Assembly (NCBI GenBank): GCA_042408215.1
Contig: JAYFMW010000007.1
Coordinates: 96,001 to 160,000 of the forward strand
Length of the DNA: 64,000 nt
Reading direction: 5' to 3'
From: Microcoleus sp.
GTDB lineage: Bacteria; Cyanobacteriota; Cyanobacteriia; Cyanobacteriales; Microcoleaceae
In this document: piece after piece, positions 1 to 36,000 of the stretch
How positions within the stretch are numbered: the stretch's first letter is position 1
Layout: every line of letters begins with the position of its first letter
Program-made: the position numbers

Positions 1-3000
1 TTTGATAATTGGGTTGCCCAAAGGTTCAAAAATTGCTGTCGGGCCGGCCATTCTCCCCAATAGTCCCAAATTTTCGATATCTTGCGGTTGGGAAGTGGTT
101 TGAGTAAAGTAGATAGGGATTTCGCGGATTTCTGAAGTGACATCGCGCCTAACATTAACCGTTCCGAGGGGAGACAGCAATTCCTGTAATAAGTTTTTGG
201 CAAAGCGATTGTGAATCACTTCTGTCGCTGGTTTTTCTTGATTTATTTCCCCATCATTTGAATTGGTGCATTGATGAACATGAACCGTGCCGATGGTAGA
301 TAGTAAAGTTGTGAGATATTCTTTGGCAAAGCGATCGTGAATTAATTCTGTCATTGGATTTGTGATTTGAGATTACTGCGGTATATCAATTAAGCTGTTA
401 CGCATTTAAACCACTAACGAGGTCTGTAGGGTGCCACGGCTCGTAGGCGTAAGCCGGGGCGCAGCCATCGCTTACTATACAAGGGAAACGTTTGTTTTCC
501 GGTGTATTACCGCTCACAAGCGAATTTCCATTTCAGAGTAGGAGTCAGGTCAGAGGATGATTGTACTATAATTCAGAAGTTAAAATAATTGACTAGATAA
601 TTTATGAATGCTGAAGAATTACTAAGACGATATGCTGATGGTGAAAGAGATTTTGCTGAGGTTGATTTGAGCGGTGTCGATTTGAACAAGGCAAATCTCC
701 TTGATATCAGTCTCGCCAATGCCAATCTGATTAATGCTAACTTTAGTTATGCTGACTTGATTAATGCTAACTTGAGTGGTGCTAACTTGAGCAATGCTAA
801 CTTGAATTGTATTGACTTGAACGACGCTAACTTGAGCAATGCTAACTTGAGCGAGGCTCACTTGGATGGTGCTCAGTTGATTAATGCTAATTTTAGTGGT
901 GCTAACTTGAGAGAAGCTTGGTTGGAAGGGGCTGACTTGAGTGGAGCCAATCTAAGTAATGCCTGCTTGGAAAATGCAACTTTGCACTATGCTGACGCGA
1001 CTGATGCCAACCTCAGTGGAGCTAATTTGAAAAATGGTTTTTTATCTAGGCTCAACTGTGAAAATACTAACCTCACTGGAGCCGACCTCAGCGATGCAGA
1101 CCTCGGTGAAGCTGGTTTTGACAAAGCAACTCTAATTGGCGCGAATCTAAGTAACACCAAGCTGCATCAAACAGGGTTTGAAAATTCCGATCTTACTGGA
1201 GCTAACTTTAGTGGTTCAATTATGGATGAAACATCGTTTGATGGTTCAAATCTCAGTCACGCTAATCTGATGGGAGTTCAGCCAGAACCTAGTCTGATGG
1301 CAAAGAAGGTTAGGCTTATGGGAAAAGGGTTTGAAGAAGCTATCTTATGTAAGACTATCATGCCTGATGGTAGCATCCGCAATGATAATTGTACAGCTTG
1401 ATTAATGCTAAACATTACTGAAAACATATCTACCTTCCGTTTGAAAATTCATCATATTTCTGTTTCGACCCACGTCTGATAAATTAATATAAATCCGCGT
1501 TAAATATCCTCTTTATAATTAACCTCAGCAGCGGTAATATGAAGTTGAGGGCGATCGCATTGGAATAGCAAAACAAAGAATAATTGTACTATAATTCAGA
1601 AGTTAAAATAATTGACTAGATAATTTATGAACGCTGAAGAATTGCTCGAACGGTATACCAGTGGAGAAAGACACTTTGCTGGGGTTGACTTGAGCGGTGT
1701 CGATTTGAACAAGGCAAAGCTCATTGATATCAATCTCGCCAATGCTATTTTGATTAATGCTAACTTGACGAGTACTCATTTGAGTGGTGCTGACTTGAGT
1801 GGTGCTAACTTGAGCGAGGCTAACTTGGATTGTATTCACTTGACCGAGGCTAACTTGACCGAGGCTAACTTGACCGAGGCTAACTTGGATGGCGCTGAGT
1901 TGATTAAGGCTAATTTTAGTGGTGCTAACTTGAAAGGAGCTTGGTTGGAAGGGGCTGACTTGACGGGAGCTAATCTAAGTAATGCCTGCTTAGAAAACGC
2001 AACTTTGCACTATGCTGACGTGACTGATGCCAACCTCAGTGGAGCTAATTTGAAAAATGGTTTTTTATCTCGGCTCCACTGTCAAAATACAAACCTCACT
2101 GGAGCCGACCTCAGCGATGCAGATGTCACTGAAGCTGGTTTTTATAAAGCAACTCTAATTGGCGCAAATCTGAGTAACACCCAGTTGCATCAAACAGGGT
2201 TTACTAATTCAGATCTTACTGGAGCAAACCTCAGTGGTGCGATTCTAGAGGAAACATCATTTGATGGTTCAAATCTGTGCAATGCTAATCTGATGGGAGC
2301 TAGAGGAGAGCCTGAATATGGCCCAAATACAACAATCAATCTTTGCGGAGAATGGGAAGACGCTACCTTGTGCAATACTGTCATGCCAGATGGAACGATC
2401 CGAAACGATAATTGCCCAGAGCGATAAATGCTAAACATTGCTGAAAACATATCTACCCTCCGTTTGAATATTTATCATATTTCTGTGTCGATAGGCGTCA
2501 GATAAATTAATACAAATCCGCGTTAAATATCCCCTTTATAATTAACCGCACCAGCGCGACTAGGAGGTTAACTGCGATCGGATAGGACTAGCAAAACATA
2601 GGATAATTGTACTATAATTCAAAAGTTAAAATAATTGACTAGATAATTTATGAACGCTGAAGAATTGCTCGAACGGTATACCAGTGGAGAAAGACACTTT
2701 GCTGGGGTTGACTTGAGCGGTGTCGATTTGAACAAGGCAAAGCTCATTGATATCAATCTCGCCAATGCTATTTTGATTAATGCTAACTTGACGAGTACTC
2801 ATTTGAGTGGTGCTGACTTGAGTGGTGCTAACTTGAGCGAGGCTAACTTGGATTGTATTCACTTGACCGAGGCTAACTTGACCGAGGCTAACTTGACCGA
2901 GGCTAACTTGGATGGCGCTGAGTTGATTAAGGCTAATTTTAGTGGTGCTAACTTGAAAGGAGCTTGGTTACAAGGGGCTGACTTGACGGGAGCTAATCTA

Positions 3001-33000: not shown

Positions 33001-36000
33001 AGGACGGCGACAGTTTCTGTGGGATTTGAATGGCTATTATGATTTTTTGAATTGGGTTCTGGTTCGAGAGAATTAACAGCAACTGGCAGGGTTTTCTCGG
33101 TTTCTAATTCGGCTGCTGTGAAGGAAACAACGATGTCCCGTTCGATTGTATCAGCAGTGAATTCTGCTGGTTTTAGCAAATCGGTTTTTGTTGGCAATTG
33201 TTCGGTTTCAAGTTCTCCTGTTATTTCAGCGACCGGGATGTCCAGAACCACCGTGCCAGAATTGATTTCTGCGGTAATAATCGACTCGTTTTTTGTGGGC
33301 AATTCTTCGGCTGTGGTAGAAACATTGGAGTGGGTTTCTTTTGGTGATTGTTCGCCCACATTAGAGCTGAGTAAGTCTGTTTTTGCAGGAGAATTTTCTG
33401 CAAGTGGAGCGATAATTGACTCTGTTTCTGCGGGAGGTTTAGAAATGCTTGCAGTTACAGTTGTGTCGGTTTTGATTAATTCAGCATCTGCTGATAGACT
33501 GACAATAGATTCTGTTTTAACTGGCTGTTTAATTTCCGAAAGTGAGTCAGTATTGTTCGGAGTTTTTTCTGGGGTTTTAACTGCTGCTGTTGCTGTCGTC
33601 ACCGCTACATTTTCACTGGCTGCTGTTTTTGGTGTTGCAGCAGGTTCGGTTTTTAATGGGTCTATTTTTCCTGAATCATTCGGTTTGTCAGTTAAAGATT
33701 GAGTAGCGGTTTGTACTGGATTTTTTAAATCTGTTGATTTGACTTCTTCTCTGATATTAACGTCAGGTGAAACTGGGTTAGATGTGGCCAGAATTAATGG
33801 GGCTGTTGCGGGCTGTGTTGTTGGTTGTTGAGAATTTGAAGTGGGTTTTTCGGTCGCTATTGCATCGACTGTTGGCGATTGTTTTTCGGAATCTATCTTG
33901 TCATCAGTTTTGGTAACTGGCGACTGTTTGTCTGTAGAGGTTTTATCAGTCGAGGGTATGTTTGGGCTAGCTGCAACTGTTTGGGTTGAATTTGTTACTG
34001 CAATTTTATCGGATTCTTCTGATGAATTTGTACTGCGCTCTGGTATTATGGTTGATACAGTTGCAGGTGCTGTTTTGTTCGGTTCTAATTTATCAGTCGG
34101 TGATACAGTTGCGGGTGCTGTTTTATTTGGTTCTAATTTATCAGTCGGTGATACAGTTACAGGTACTGTTTTATTTGGTTCTAATTTATCAGTCGGTGAT
34201 ACAGTTACAGGTACTGTTTTATTTGGTTCTAATTTATCAGTCGGTGATACAGTTACAGGTACTGTTTTATTTGGTTCTAGTTTATCAGTCGGTGATACAG
34301 TTGCGGGTACTGTTTTGTTCGGTTCTAGTTTATCAGTCGGTGATACAGTTGCGGGTACTGTTTTGTTCGGTTCTAGTTTATCAGTCGGTAATACAGTTGC
34401 AGGTGCTGTTTTGTTCGGTTCTAGTTTATCAGTCGGTAATACAGTTGCAGGTGCTGTTTTGTTGGGTTCTGACTCGCTTTTTAGTGTAGCCTCTGAGGAT
34501 AAGGGTGTTTTTTTATCTTCGGGTTTTGAACTCGTTTCAGCGGTTGCGGGTAATGGTGTTTTGGGAGCAGCTTTTTCGCTTGTTGTGGATGTAGTTACAA
34601 CGGGTGAGATTATTCGATTCGGGTTGGTCAGGGGGTCTCCTAAATCCGAGTCGAGTTTACCAATTAGGGGGTCAATTTCAGAAGTTGTTGCATCCCTGGA
34701 GTAGCTGTTAGTTTTGGGATCGCTGGTTTGAGCAGAAGGTATGCTGTTAAAAGCGGAGGCTTTATTAATAATCAAAGCATCAGCCTTTGCTGCACTAAAT
34801 TCGTCTTTGGGCTGCGAAGCGGTTTCTATTAAGTTAGGTTGTTGGGAGTTTTCGGATTCGCCCGGAGTTTGATATAAGAAAGGTTTTGAGGTTTTAATTC
34901 CCGGCAGGAGCGCGGGCTTTGTCGGGGCTAGTCCGGGAATTAAGGATTCCAGTTCTTCTATTAAAGGTTCTCCAATCGGGTCTGTTAAAGGCACTCTTGG
35001 CACTCCTGATTTGAGGGTTAATTTATTTTTAATTCATTATCTAGCGGTTAATAATTTTTATTATAGGTTGAATTCGATTTTAAACAAATTAGTGAAAGTA
35101 CAGAATTTTTGAGTTTTTTAGACTGTTGCTAGTCAGTTAAATCTATGTATATTTACTGAGAGTTCTTTAATTTCTGCTAAATCTTTATGAAAATAACTGT
35201 TTTCACGTAGGAAAATACTTCAATCATGTTGGAAAATACTTAAATTAACTCATCCACCGCCACGTCGCTTCCCGATCGCCCGTTTCCTCTAGCTCTGGAA
35301 TTCCTTCGATGTCGAAATGAGTTAGCTGTTACGCATTTAAACCACTAACGAAGTCTGTAGGGTGCCACGGGTCGTAGGCGTAAGCCGGGGCGCAGCCATC
35401 GCTTATTATACAAGGGAAACGCTGGGGGCTGACGCACCCTACAATTTTAAAGGTGCGATCGCCCATTCAAACTAAAACCCCAGATCCATCTTAGCAGCTT
35501 CAGCCTCTGCAAATACATCTGCGTCGGGCATTTCTTGCCAATCAATATCACCAATTTCCCTATAAAATTGTTCATCATAAGGGCGAGTTTGCACAACCAC
35601 CGGCATCGGTACCGCGTGCCCCAAAACTAATGCTTGCTGTTTGGAATCTAGTTTAGCCAAAACCGATCGCAAACTTTGGCCTCCCGAAACACCAGTAAAG
35701 ATAGCATCAATGTCCTTATCGTCGTTGAGTAAAGCCGTGATGCGAGTGCCCACTTGCGACATGACTTCGCCGTCGATACCGGAGGGGCGTTGGTCTACAA
35801 TTAACAGGGTTACGAAGTATTTTCGCATTTCTCTGGCGATCGTACCGAAAATGGTCGATCGCACGATCGCCGGATCGAGAAAACGGTGAGCTTCCTCAAT
35901 GGTAATCACTAAGGGTTGCGGGCGATCGCAGGGATTTTTACTCTGCAAAAAATTCTCAGCTTTCCGCACATAAGCTTGGTGAATGCGGCGAGTAATCACG

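What a model noticed while it worked through the whole genome (the two positions that open the first line are those of the whole stretch)
604..34994. Pentapeptide-repeat proteins as immunity partners of giant NucA-type nuclease toxins
All six full-length Endonuclease_NS (NucA/Serratia-type) genes of this genome are giant proteins (521-3191 aa) with the nuclease at the very C-terminus, and each is followed, tail to tail, by 1-3 small acidic pentapeptide-repeat proteins (PRPs) of one subfamily (N-terminal ..EELLRRYAAGERDF.., C-terminal ..TIMPDG..). Boldest reading: the giants are secreted polymorphic DNase toxins and the PRPs are their cognate immunity proteins, beta-helical DNA mimics that plug the nuclease active site. 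New would be a biochemical role for a subfamily of the enigmatic, hugely expanded cyanobacterial PRPs and a new toxin-immunity pairing.
Evidence so far: Calls 40, 42, 51, 53: loci C7:96604-130994 (g02261, 63, 66, 70, 72 with PRPs g02258-60, 62, 64-65, 67-69, 71), C29:43575-50202 (g05674 with g05672-73), C8:163539-164917 (nuclease remnant g02582 with g02580-81); 13 of the 18 proteins with the N-terminal motif (63 PRPs in all) lie at these loci; no NuiA family row in pfam.tsv. Call 83: PRPs pI 4.05-5.0, net charge -6 to -24 (one exception, g02271, pI 6.6). Call 86: co-fold of g05674 residues 1400-1703 with g05673: ipSAE 0.67/0.65/0.59, best of 3 controls 0.00 (mark reached by 51 of 78 solved and 2 of 108 mismatched pairs), runs agree in at least 85% of contacts, partner pLDDT 90-91; interface residues 1469-1479, 1485-1487, 1510-1519 flank the [...]
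(Added by a program. Inside this text positions count along the whole contig: contig position 96,001 is position 1 of the stretch shown here. "Call 12" and the like, gene names such as g00115 and contig names such as C1 are that model's own, and its searches are not shown. The text may have been shortened before it was handed on; [...] marks where a part breaks off. The agent that wrote the report below was given it as the finding of a first reader that could run no searches.)

Follow-up and report, generated by a model that had tools for sequence, protein, structure and literature searches.

The report
Pentapeptide-repeat partners of giant cyanobacterial nucleases
In this filamentous cyanobacterium and many relatives, huge proteins ending in a DNA-cutting domain are almost always followed by small acidic pentapeptide-repeat proteins that are inherited and swapped together with that domain, which makes them the likely safety inhibitors of the nuclease and would give one group of these mysterious repeat proteins a job.

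Summary
Window 604-35003 holds five minus-strand genes (521-3194 aa) ending in a NucA-type Endonuclease_NS domain. Each is followed tail to tail by 1-3 acidic pentapeptide-repeat proteins (PRPs), ten in all. A sixth pair and a remnant lie elsewhere; the genome has no NuiA.

The link is not chance. In 79 loci from other cyanobacteria, 45 of 47 genes with a C-terminal nuclease have a PRP within 1.5 kb downstream. The figure is 1 of 18 where the same domain is internal and 1 of 10 for small stand-alone nucleases. The stand-alone ones instead carry the known inhibitor NuiA, in 6 of 9, also downstream and convergent.

The four shorter window genes are nested 5'-truncated copies of the longest. Their shafts are 91-99% identical to it, while the nuclease ends are only 19-40% identical. 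A sister strain has the same nuclease-PRP units joined to other shafts. In 40 related genomes the NUC_C-type nuclease and the PRP6-type PRP occur in the same four, adjacent each time.

Best reading: PRPs are cognate cytoplasmic inhibitors, in a recombining toxin-immunity-like array. Inhibition, export and the target are not shown, and no secretion signal was found. My own co-fold gave no verdict. I rate it a new variant of a known kind.

The parts
604..1401 (+). PRP1, 265 aa, pI 4.27; third PRP downstream of NUC_A
   Evidence: Pfam PF00805 E 6.5e-64; charge; 75-79% identical to PRP2-4
1627..2427 (+). PRP2, 266 aa, pI 4.26
   Evidence: Pfam PF00805 E 1.4e-69; 91% identical to PRP3
2650..3447 (+). 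PRP3, 265 aa, pI 4.30; nearest PRP to NUC_A, convergent, 193 nt gap
3641..7045 (-). NUC_A, 1134 aa. 5'-truncated orphan copy aligning to NUC_E residues 2095-3158, with a lipase-like domain, a pre-nuclease domain and a NucA domain. GH at 921-922; lacks the Asp-Arg of DRGH; acidic C-terminal tail.
   Evidence: Pfam PF01223 E 7.8e-29
7146..7964 (+). PRP4, 272 aa, pI 4.34; nearest PRP to NUC_B, 102 nt gap
8067..11612 (-). NUC_B, 1181 aa. Orphan copy aligning to NUC_E 2045-3142, 92% identical to NUC_A. Shaft 72-98% identical to NUC_E per 100-residue window (89-98% over 2387-2686); nuclease end 25-41%.
11859..12800 (+). PRP5, 313 aa; two PRP modules in one protein, each with an N-terminal cap motif
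12936..13631 (+). PRP6, 231 aa, pI 4.19; nearest PRP to NUC_C, 90 nt gap
   Evidence: found only beside NUC_C-type nucleases in 4 of 40 related genomes
13722..15287 (-). NUC_C, 521 aa; the minimal cassette of pre-nuclease domain plus NucA domain (DRGH, His344)
   Evidence: Pfam E 2.2e-34; E 4e-40 to Anabaena NucA chains 2o3b/1zm8
15398..15985 (+). PRP7, 195 aa, pI 4.47
16060..16539 (+). PRP8, 159 aa, pI 4.11; lacks the C-terminal MPDG tail
16822..17310 (+). PRP9, 162 aa, pI 4.62; nearest PRP to NUC_D, 174 nt gap; 80-85% identical to the two C29 PRPs
17485..24360 (-). NUC_D, 2291 aa; copy of NUC_E from residue 943 on. 96-99% identical over NUC_E 1001-1500, falling to 19-38% in the nuclease.
24615..25337 (+). 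PRP10, 240 aa, pI 6.64; nearest PRP to NUC_E, 81 nt gap; its own PRP type
   Evidence: like-for-like partners beside NUC_E-type nucleases in L008 and L081
25419..35003 (-). NUC_E, 3194 aa; the only full-length gene. GTG start with AGGAG 8 nt upstream; about 800 aa of Pro/Thr-rich repeats; then DUF4114, Big_9, Big_2, a lipase-like domain, the pre-nuclease domain and NucA.

Best explanation
The small acidic PRPs are cytoplasmic, cognate protein inhibitors (immunity proteins) of the NucA-type nuclease carried at the C-terminus of giant, probably exported, multidomain proteins. In this role they replace NuiA.

The window holds one full-length gene (NUC_E) followed on the same strand by four 5'-truncated orphan copies. 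Each copy keeps a near-identical stretch of the shaft but carries its own diverged cassette of pre-nuclease domain, nuclease and PRP gene(s). Recombination within the shared shaft sequence moves a nuclease together with its PRP onto another shaft, so a strain can change its nuclease type without losing protection.

Shown:
- the anatomy of the locus;
- the specific and conserved linkage;
- co-divergence of nuclease and PRP;
- exchange of whole units between strains;
- intact catalytic residues;
- the acidity of the PRPs.

Inferred:
- that the PRP binds the DNA-binding cleft as a DNA-like acidic beta-helix and blocks the nuclease until export;
- that the giants leave the cell;
- that the diversification reflects conflict between strains.
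For: (1) Cross-genome linkage. Of the nuclease genes in 79 loci, 47 have the nuclease at the C-terminus and at least 1 kb of sequence downstream. 45 of these have a PRP within 1.5 kb downstream and 42 within 600 bp. The figures are 1 of 18 for genes with the domain internal and 1 of 10 for small stand-alone genes. Fisher's test on 45/47 against 2/28 gives 1e-15, but this overstates the case because the rows are related. All 48 PRPs scanned hit PF00805. The 52 PRP-linked nuclease domains fall into 21 clusters at about 50% normalised score and come from 32 record-title stems.

(2) Repeated change of architecture. On the domain tree the C-terminal and internal classes interleave: 11 changes, at least 5 of them forced by well-supported branches, and the PRP state changes 12 times.

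(3) Positional equivalence with a known inhibitor. The stand-alone lipoprotein NucA relatives have NuiA downstream and convergent in 6 of 9. No locus with a C-terminal or internal nuclease has NuiA, and neither does this genome.

(4) Cognate pairing.
- Nuclease and PRP similarity matrices correlate: rho 0.30, with 0 of 1000 permutations as high.
- The best PRP match from another locus belongs to the most similar nuclease in 27 of 52 cases and to one of the top three in 39 of 52.
- Within the genome, PRP1-4 go with NUC_A/B, PRP9 and the C29 PRPs with NUC_D/C29, and PRP10 with NUC_E.
- In 40 related genomes the NUC_C-type nuclease (71-100% identity) is in 4, and the PRP6-type PRP (66-100%) is in the same 4, adjacent each time.

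(5) Orphan-module anatomy. The paralogues are nested C-terminal parts of NUC_E. Per 100-residue window, shaft identity to NUC_E reaches 91-99% and then drops to 19-40% in the nuclease. The shared shaft sequence forms DNA direct repeats of 0.5-3.4 kb at 90-94% identity.

(6) Unit swapping. In Tychonema sp. LEGE 06208 (L008) the NUC_D-like shaft is joined to the NUC_C cassette with PRP6 and PRP5. The NUC_B-like shaft is joined to the NUC_E cassette with PRP10.

(7) Probably active nucleases. The residues GH, N, N and E are invariant in all six paralogues, and GH in all 49 aligned domains. NUC_C matches Anabaena NucA at E 4e-40.

(8) Acidic, leaderless PRPs. Their median pI is 4.34, against 6.13 for the 50 other PRP-like ORFs of the genome (Mann-Whitney p 3e-5). 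Across genomes, 44 of 47 have pI below 5.5. They start directly with the cap motif, with no leader peptide.

(9) Operon-like cases. 8 of the 47 nearest PRPs are on the same strand as the nuclease, 6 of them with gaps of 19-32 nt.
Against: - No binding or inhibition has been measured.
- Relatives with the same nuclease domain placed internally, with the catalytic Gly-His invariant, have neither a PRP nor NuiA within the sequence held. An adjacent inhibitor is therefore not a general need of this nuclease, and the PRP could serve something tied to the C-terminal architecture other than inhibition.
- No signal peptide, secretion-system marker or conserved export gene was found.
- The C-terminal domain is always NucA: 118 of the 120 listed proteins, the other 2 being truncated. 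This differs from classical polymorphic toxins.
- PRP length varies from 159 to 466 aa, and 1-3 PRPs follow each nuclease, which is loose for a tight one-to-one inhibitor.
- The nuclease domains are themselves acidic overall (median pI 5.0), so there is no global charge complementarity.
- The N-terminal and C-terminal PRP motifs also occur in 3 PRPs of this genome that are far from any nuclease.
- The test on phylogenetically independent pairs is underpowered: 4 supported pairs, PRP state going the same way in 3.3 on average and never the other way, median p 0.25.
- The co-divergence could reflect tight linkage alone.
Confidence: 0.62

Rival explanations
1. The PRPs are inhibitors, but the giants are not weapons. 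They would be exported or surface-bound housekeeping nucleases, used for scavenging extracellular DNA and phosphate or for remodelling the mat or sheath. The PRP would only protect the producer's cytoplasm before export, exactly as NuiA does for NucA.
For: - The domain is a close NucA homologue.
- Stand-alone relatives are lipoproteins paired with NuiA.
- The shafts and the internal-class tails carry extracellular-type domains: Big_9, Big_2, cadherin-like, PKD and Calx-beta.
- No delivery apparatus was found.
- The toxin fold never varies.
Against: - A housekeeping nuclease gives no reason for arrays of truncated copies with diverged nuclease-PRP units, or for unit swapping between strains.
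- It gives no reason for the patchy presence among congeners: 12 of 24.
- It gives no reason for type-specific pairing of PRP and nuclease.
Confidence: 0.25
2. The PRPs are not inhibitors but helpers for export or release of the C-terminal nuclease: chaperones or adaptors, as is proposed for the DUF2169/pentapeptide proteins encoded beside T6SS spikes.
For: - PRPs accompany only the C-terminal architecture, not the internal one.
- PRP genes lie in T6SS vgrG islands next to effectors in Pantoea (PMC10933656 and PMC12873547, passages read).
Against: - Most are convergent, with up to three per nuclease, and they are type-specific.
- They occupy the place that NuiA, a proven inhibitor, occupies beside stand-alone relatives.
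- No T6SS or other secretion genes lie nearby.
Confidence: 0.07
3. The linkage is only hitch-hiking. PRP genes, which are very numerous in cyanobacteria, were caught once in a duplicating cassette and have no functional tie to the nuclease.
For: - The loci are paralogous.
- There are 63-73 PRP-like ORFs in this genome.
- The cap motifs also occur in PRPs elsewhere in the genome.
Against: - The PRP is retained in 45 of 47 cases across nuclease domains that are only 33-50% identical, in at least 8 named genera.
- It is lost where the architecture changes.
- It co-varies with nuclease type.
- The linked PRPs are markedly more acidic than the other PRPs.
Confidence: 0.05

Closest known systems
NucA-NuiA of Anabaena/Nostoc sp. 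PCC 7120 (sugar-non-specific nuclease and its protein inhibitor; PDB 1zm8, 2o3b)
   Same: - The nuclease family is the same: NUC_C matches at E 4e-40 over 264 residues.
- The catalytic GH, N, N and E residues are kept.
- A small leaderless protein is encoded downstream and convergent. This is the gene geometry found for NuiA in 6 of 9 stand-alone relatives.
   Different: - The partner is a pentapeptide-repeat protein, not NuiA; NuiA was not found in this genome.
- The nuclease is the last domain of a 521-3194 aa protein without a signal peptide, not a roughly 270 aa lipoprotein or secreted enzyme.
- The units are multiplied and diversified.
Polymorphic toxin systems with Tox-NucA and orphan toxin-immunity modules (Zhang et al. 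2012, PMC3482391, tables and passages read; CDI and Rhs orphan arrays recalled from general knowledge)
   Same: - A C-terminal NucA-type toxin domain sits on a long multidomain protein.
- A small gene follows each toxin end.
- 5'-truncated orphan copies share a near-identical upstream segment and differ at the toxin end.
- Units are exchanged between strains.
   Different: - That paper lists Imm36, Imm-SUKH and Imm-NTF2 as the immunity proteins for Tox-NucA. The word 'pentapeptide' has 0 occurrences in the text held, and cyanobacteria are not listed among the Tox-NucA lineages.
- No PAAR, Rhs, TPS, LXG/WXG or other trafficking domain was found here.
- The toxin fold never changes.
- Most of the partner genes are convergent.
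DNA-mimic pentapeptide-repeat proteins MfpA, Qnr and AlbG
   Same: - They belong to the same Pfam family, and both are acidic.
- They are proposed to work by occupying the DNA site of a DNA-processing enzyme (PMC7980463 and PMC7897471, abstracts seen in the listing).
   Different: - Those proteins act on DNA gyrase and protect it from drugs or toxins.
- None is reported to inhibit a nuclease in the papers my searches found.
- NCBIfam scores of PRP6 against the Qnr and MfpA models are far below their cut-offs.
YjbI-like pentapeptide genes beside GH-E His-Me finger toxins (Jablonska et al. 2017, PMC5714182)
   Same: A His-Me finger nuclease toxin has a pentapeptide-repeat gene as neighbour, and no recognised immunity gene was found (passage read).
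   Different: - The nuclease family is different (GH-E), and the context is proteobacterial T6SS.
- The authors did not propose the PRP as the immunity protein.
- In Pantoea the PRP protein (TseG) is treated as the effector itself, with a DUF3540 protein as its immunity.

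Membership tests
Endonuclease_NS / NucA (PF01223) | Score above Pfam's gathering cut-off | tested here: met
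   99-119.5 bits against a cut-off of 23 for all five window genes; six full matches plus one remnant in the genome.
Endonuclease_NS / NucA (PF01223) | Catalytic residues GH, N, N, E (listed for Tox-NucA in PMC3482391) | tested here: met
   G152, H153, N175, N184 and E206 are invariant in the six paralogues. GH is invariant in 49 domains. NUC_A and NUC_B lack the Asp-Arg that precedes GH.
Pentapeptide repeat proteins (PF00805) | Tandem pentapeptide repeats scoring above Pfam's cut-off | tested here: met
   80.6-229.6 bits against a cut-off of 20.2 for the ten window PRPs. 48 of 48 nuclease-adjacent PRPs match.
Pentapeptide repeat proteins (PF00805) | Right-handed quadrilateral beta-helix fold | not tested
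   No PRP was folded here; the fold is inferred from family membership.
NucA-NuiA inhibitor pair | Inhibitor of the NuiA family (PF07924) | tested here: not met
   No match in the genome (the Pfam search rang in no control genome) or in any locus with a C-terminal or internal nuclease. NuiA is present beside 6 of 9 stand-alone relatives.
Polymorphic toxin system | C-terminal toxin domain on a long protein, with a small gene directly after it | tested here: met
   Orientation is convergent in 39 and same-strand in 8 of the 47 nearest PRPs.
Polymorphic toxin system | Conserved N-terminal region with varied C-terminal toxin ends; orphan toxin-immunity cassettes | tested here: met
   Shafts reach 91-99% identity to NUC_E against 19-40% in the nuclease; the copies are nested truncations. 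Units are swapped in L008.
Polymorphic toxin system | Different toxin folds on the same delivery scaffold | tested here: not met
   118 of the 120 listed proteins with the pre-nuclease domain carry PF01223, and the other 2 are truncated.
Polymorphic toxin system | Recognisable trafficking domain or linked secretion system | tested here: inconclusive
   None was found by Pfam or NCBIfam in the giants or their neighbours. About 800 N-terminal residues of NUC_E are low-complexity repeats with no match.
Polymorphic toxin system | The partner protein neutralises the toxin | not testable with these tools
   This needs a toxicity-rescue experiment or an inhibition assay.
DNA-mimic PRPs (MfpA/Qnr type) | Acidic surface resembling DNA | tested here: inconclusive
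   Net charge is strongly negative, but the distribution of charge on the surface was not modelled.
DNA-mimic PRPs (MfpA/Qnr type) | Membership of the Qnr or MfpA equivalog models | tested here: not met
   PRP6 scores 45.8-56.8 bits against cut-offs of 240-500. It passes only the Alr5209 model (171 against 125 bits), through five partial repeat stretches.

The most novel reading that the evidence does not exclude
A large subfamily of the enigmatic cyanobacterial pentapeptide-repeat proteins is a new class of immunity protein. These would be acidic beta-helices that mimic DNA and plug NucA-type DNases. The giant nucleases would be strain-against-strain weapons of mat-forming Oscillatoriales, delivered by a route not yet described, whose nuclease-immunity units are exchanged by recombination within repeated shaft sequence. 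The same logic could explain the pentapeptide genes, so far unexplained, that lie beside GH-E His-Me finger toxins in proteobacteria.
Probability: 0.35. Interest if true: 0.85.

Novelty: new variant of a known kind. Interest (0 to 1): 0.72.

Why it matters
Pentapeptide-repeat proteins number in the dozens per cyanobacterial genome, and the structural papers I read say their biochemical functions remain largely unknown (PMC7337050). A conserved, type-specific partnership with a well-understood enzyme gives one subfamily a directly testable function: mix the two proteins and measure DNase activity.

It would also add a new fold to the known nuclease inhibitors and immunity proteins. It would extend DNA mimicry by PRPs from gyrase to nucleases. 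And it would point to a toxin-immunity-like diversification system in filamentous, mat-forming cyanobacteria such as Microcoleus and Tychonema, where strain competition is little understood and no delivery route is known.

Tried and rejected
(1) Co-fold of the NUC_C nuclease domain with PRP6, each chain given as an alignment (A3, A2). Scores were 0.04 and 0.01 against a mark of 0.32, and the tool's verdict was 'no answer'. This is not evidence either way.

(2) Idea that internal-class giants carry a PRP-like inhibitor in the same polypeptide. A five-residue periodic segment does follow the nuclease: runs of 3-13 pentads, against 0-4 in the control stretches before and further after the nuclease. 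But Pfam finds no pentapeptide family there, and AlphaFold2 on 27 sequences leaves residues 339-574 at pLDDT 22-30, with no beta-helix. Rejected for lack of support.

(3) HerA-like ATPase gene (35472-37208) as a linked export or partner gene. The genes upstream of 12 full-length relatives are unrelated to it and to each other. Rejected.

(4) Other motif-bearing PRPs of the genome (on C28, C29 and C30) as partners of other toxins. Their neighbours show nothing of that kind (ORFs listed only, not scanned against Pfam).

(5) RNA evidence. Contigs from four RNA libraries of three studies cover parts of PRP5, PRP6, NUC_C and NUC_D at 95-100% identity. Contigs cannot show strand or level, and DNA carry-over is not excluded, so there is no claim of expression.

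(6) Terminator and promoter scans over 11500-26000 found no more sites than in shuffled sequence: 25 against 23.6, and 13 against 13.9.

(7) The test on phylogenetically independent pairs has too few supported pairs to reach significance.

(8) Earlier scan notes held nothing on this genome or this pairing.

(9) Literature searches for a PRP acting as a nuclease inhibitor or immunity protein found no such report. The nearest is a 2026 preprint (10.64898/2026.07.13.738213, passages read). It notes that the presumed antitoxin of a Mycobacterium chelonae T7SS toxin is annotated as a pentapeptide-repeat protein and resembles Tsi6a. The supplements of that preprint were not seen.

Full report
**What is there**

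Window positions 604-35003 hold fifteen genes in a strict pattern. Five minus-strand genes, of 1134, 1181, 521, 2291 and 3194 aa, each end in an Endonuclease_NS (PF01223) domain. I call them NUC_A to NUC_E. Between them lie ten plus-strand pentapeptide-repeat proteins (PRP1-10, 159-313 aa, PF00805). Every nuclease gene therefore meets 1-3 PRP genes tail to tail, with 81-193 nt between the stop codons.

The whole genome has six full Endonuclease_NS matches and one remnant. The sixth gene, on contig C29 (1703 aa), has two convergent PRPs. The remnant on C8 has one PRP on its own strand 25 nt downstream and one convergent PRP.

The PRPs are acidic: pI 4.11-4.73 and net charge -8 to -24. PRP10 is the exception, at pI 6.64. 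They begin directly with a cap motif (..EELLRRYAAGERDF..), with no leader peptide. No NuiA was found in this 99.98% complete genome, either with the Pfam model (that search rang in no control genome) or with my own NuiA profile.

**The nuclease**

The last 330 residues of the six paralogues are only 35-42% identical to NUC_C, but they keep G152, H153, N175, N184 and E206. These are the GH, N, N, E residues that Zhang et al. list for Tox-NucA (PMC3482391). NUC_C matches the solved Anabaena NucA chains (2o3b, 1zm8) at E 4e-40 over 264 residues. NUC_A and NUC_B have lost the Asp-Arg in front of the catalytic Gly-His. The enzymes are probably active, though this was not measured.

**Is the link more than chance?**

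A scan of one genome per species with the six-paralogue alignment returned 79 loci, all with cyanobacterial or unclassified titles. I sorted the nuclease genes in them by architecture.

| Class of nuclease gene (with at least 1 kb downstream) | PRP within 1.5 kb downstream |
|---|---|
| Nuclease at the C-terminus | 45 of 47 (42 within 600 bp) |
| Nuclease domain internal to a giant protein | 1 of 18 |
| Small stand-alone nuclease | 1 of 10 |

- The two C-terminal genes without a PRP are in L039 and L079. The one stand-alone exception (in L026) is a piece of a split C-terminal gene.
- All 48 PRPs scanned, including PRP6, hit PF00805.
- In their alignment the N-terminal residues R14, Y15, G18, E19, R20 and F22 are at least 90% conserved.
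- A crude Fisher test gives 1e-15, but the rows are related.
- The 52 PRP-linked domains, including the window's five, form 21 clusters at about 50% normalised score. They come from 32 record-title stems in at least 8 named genera, mostly Microcoleaceae and Oscillatoriaceae.

On a tree of 94 nuclease domains the C-terminal and internal classes interleave. There are 11 changes, at least 5 of them forced by well-supported branches, and the PRP state changes 12 times. Only 4 phylogenetically independent, well-supported pairs exist. In these the PRP goes with the C-terminal state in 3.3 on average and never the other way, which cannot reach significance (median p 0.25).

That is explained here: the link holds only for this subfamily, and only when the nuclease is the last domain.

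**The NuiA parallel**

The nine true stand-alone relatives are roughly 270 aa lipoproteins with a lipobox. Six of them have a NuiA gene downstream in convergent orientation: five by Pfam at E 1e-44 to 1e-50, and a sixth by my own profile. No locus with a C-terminal or internal nuclease has NuiA.

So within one nuclease family, the slot downstream and convergent is filled either by the proven inhibitor NuiA or by a PRP, depending on architecture. This removes the objection that convergent genes cannot be functional partners. In addition, 8 of the 47 nearest PRPs are on the same strand as the nuclease, 6 of them with gaps of 19-32 nt, including the intact relatives of the C8 remnant.

**Anatomy of the array**

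NUC_D, NUC_B, NUC_A, NUC_C and the C29 gene align to NUC_E from residues 943, 2045, 2095, 2641 and 1505 onward. They are nested 5'-truncated copies, and only NUC_E is full length.

- NUC_D is 96-99% identical to NUC_E over residues 1001-1500, falling to 19-38% in the nuclease.
- NUC_A and NUC_B are 70-98% identical to NUC_E per 100-residue window over residues 2101-2690, and 25-41% in the nuclease.
- At the DNA level the shared stretches are direct repeats of 0.5-3.4 kb at 90-94% identity.
- The variable unit is about 520 aa, made of the pre-nuclease domain plus the nuclease. This is exactly NUC_C, together with the PRP gene or genes.

This is the layout of orphan toxin-immunity modules behind a full-length toxin gene.

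**Units move together**

In Tychonema sp. LEGE 06208 (L008) the NUC_D-like shaft runs straight into the NUC_C cassette, followed by PRP6 and PRP5. The NUC_B-like shaft runs into the NUC_E cassette, followed by PRP10. The NUC_C-type domain there closes an open frame of at least 2441 aa.

Among 40 related genomes, 12 of the 24 congeners have any match to this nuclease. The NUC_C type (100, 84, 84 and 71% identity) is in four genomes. The PRP6 type (100, 86, 86 and 66%) is in the same four, adjacent each time, and was not found in the others at that threshold. The PRP search scored at most 70 candidates per genome, so some could have been missed.

Across 52 pairs, nuclease and PRP similarities correlate (rho 0.30; 0 of 1000 permutations as high). 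The best PRP match from another locus sits beside the most similar nuclease in 27 of 52 cases, and beside one of the top three in 39. Inside this genome the PRP types follow the nuclease types.

**The PRPs as a class**

The 13 PRPs at the nuclease loci have a median pI of 4.34. The 50 other PRP-like ORFs of the genome have a median of 6.13 (Mann-Whitney p 3e-5). Across genomes, 44 of 47 have pI below 5.5. The control set comes from my ORF heuristic and may include spurious frames.

NCBIfam places PRP6 and PRP10 above the cut-off of the Alr5209 model only, through several partial repeat stretches, and far below the Qnr and MfpA cut-offs. I do not count that as membership of the Alr5209 family.

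**What argues against the reading, or stays open**

- Nothing shows binding or inhibition.
- Giants with the same domain placed internally, with the catalytic Gly-His invariant and tails of PKD, Big_9, Calx-beta and cadherin domains, have neither a PRP nor NuiA nearby.
- No export signal or machinery was found. NUC_E starts at a GTG with AGGAG 8 nt upstream and has no signal peptide. It continues with about 800 aa of Pro/Thr-rich repeats, then DUF4114, Big_9 and Big_2. Neighbours in other genomes are unrelated.
- The pre-nuclease domain is always followed by NucA: 118 of the 120 listed proteins, the other 2 being truncated. The system is polymorphic in sequence, not in fold.
- PRP length and number vary widely.
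- The nuclease domains are themselves acidic overall (median pI 5.0).

**How it most likely works**

The giant is made in the cytoplasm with a nuclease that can already fold. A cognate acidic PRP binds it, most plausibly in the DNA cleft around the catalytic His and the metal-binding Asn, and keeps it silent until export. Cells that carry the matching PRP are protected. The repeated shaft sequence lets recombination put another nuclease-PRP unit onto the full-length gene.

The anatomy, the linkage, the co-divergence and the swapping are shown. Binding, the binding site, export and the target are inferred. I put 0.62 on the inhibitor role, and about 0.35 on the full weapon-plus-immunity reading.

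**Comparison with what is known**

- The nuclease is a member of the NucA family.
- The pair works like NucA-NuiA, but it fails the NuiA membership test.
- The array works like a polymorphic toxin locus with orphan modules. It lacks a known trafficking domain and varied toxin folds.
- Zhang et al. list Imm36, SUKH and NTF2 as the immunity proteins for Tox-NucA. They have no pentapeptide entry and do not list cyanobacteria for this toxin.
- Jablonska et al. noted YjbI-like PRP genes beside GH-E His-Me finger toxins and could find no immunity gene.
- In Pantoea the PRP protein itself is treated as the effector.
- A 2026 preprint mentions an antitoxin annotated as a PRP for an unrelated T7SS toxin.
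- My four literature searches found no report of a PRP that inhibits a nuclease.

I therefore rate the finding a new variant of a known kind.

Noticed in passing
window 9693-11075 (NUC_B residues 180-640); the same region in NUC_A, NUC_D, NUC_E and the C29 gene: The shaft holds a conserved domain with an invariant GFSRG (GxSxG) motif and invariant Asp and His residues. Language-model look-alikes are alpha/beta hydrolase and lipase clusters (scores 0.89-0.91). The first 230 residues of an AlphaFold2 model (pLDDT 80-94) resemble alpha/beta hydrolases only moderately: best Z 7.9 to 3lp5, and Z 6.4 to a venom phospholipase A1. It may be a second, lipase-like activity of the giants.
   Followed up: partly
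window 32600-34600 (NUC_E residues about 130-800): Long low-complexity Pro/Thr/Ser/Lys-rich region with about nine tandem copies of a 16-residue unit (LEPNKT.PATV.PTDK). It looks like an extended stalk, and no family matches it.
   Followed up: partly
loci L012, L013, L018, L023-L025, L028, L029, L032 and others: In Nostocales, Pleurocapsales, Chamaesiphon and others the same nuclease cassette lies inside proteins of 1000 to more than 6800 aa. It is followed by a disordered stretch with a five-residue periodicity, a conserved DLPTGQLAEA..HExGH metalloprotease-like motif, and PKD, Big_9, Calx-beta and cadherin domains. No PRP or NuiA lies nearby.
   Followed up: partly
loci L048, L055, L063, L064, L070, L085: Stand-alone lipoprotein NucA homologues (about 270 aa, with a lipobox) with a convergent NuiA gene 8-1004 bp downstream, or overlapping the nuclease's stop codon in L070. 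This shows the gene geometry of the classical pair.
   Followed up: yes
window 35472-37208 (-): HerA-like ATPase (DUF87 plus HAS barrel) directly upstream of NUC_E on the same strand. It is not conserved upstream of relatives in other genomes.
   Followed up: partly
window 37770-39209 (-): A 479 aa pentapeptide-repeat protein (374 bits to PF00805) lies 2.8 kb from NUC_E and is not part of the nuclease pattern.
   Followed up: no
window 47990-48623: Intergenic tandem array: 5.9 copies of a 107-bp unit at 97% identity.
   Followed up: no
window 51864-53138 (-), within 52001-54000: STAND-type NTPase (weak NACHT, NB-ARC and AAA matches) in the lowest-GC stretch of the window (GC 0.345).
   Followed up: no
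window 3641-3720 and 8067-8140 (C-terminal tails of NUC_A and NUC_B): Both proteins end in a Pro-rich then poly-Glu tail (..PEDPTEPEEELEELEGESEELEEE) that the other paralogues lack. Its function is unknown.
   Followed up: no
window 11859-12800, 15398-15985, 16060-16539 (PRP5, PRP7, PRP8): These extra PRPs have orthologues as second or third PRPs in other loci, but in the 47 cross-genome pairs none of their types is the PRP nearest to a nuclease. They may be orphan immunity genes.
   Followed up: partly
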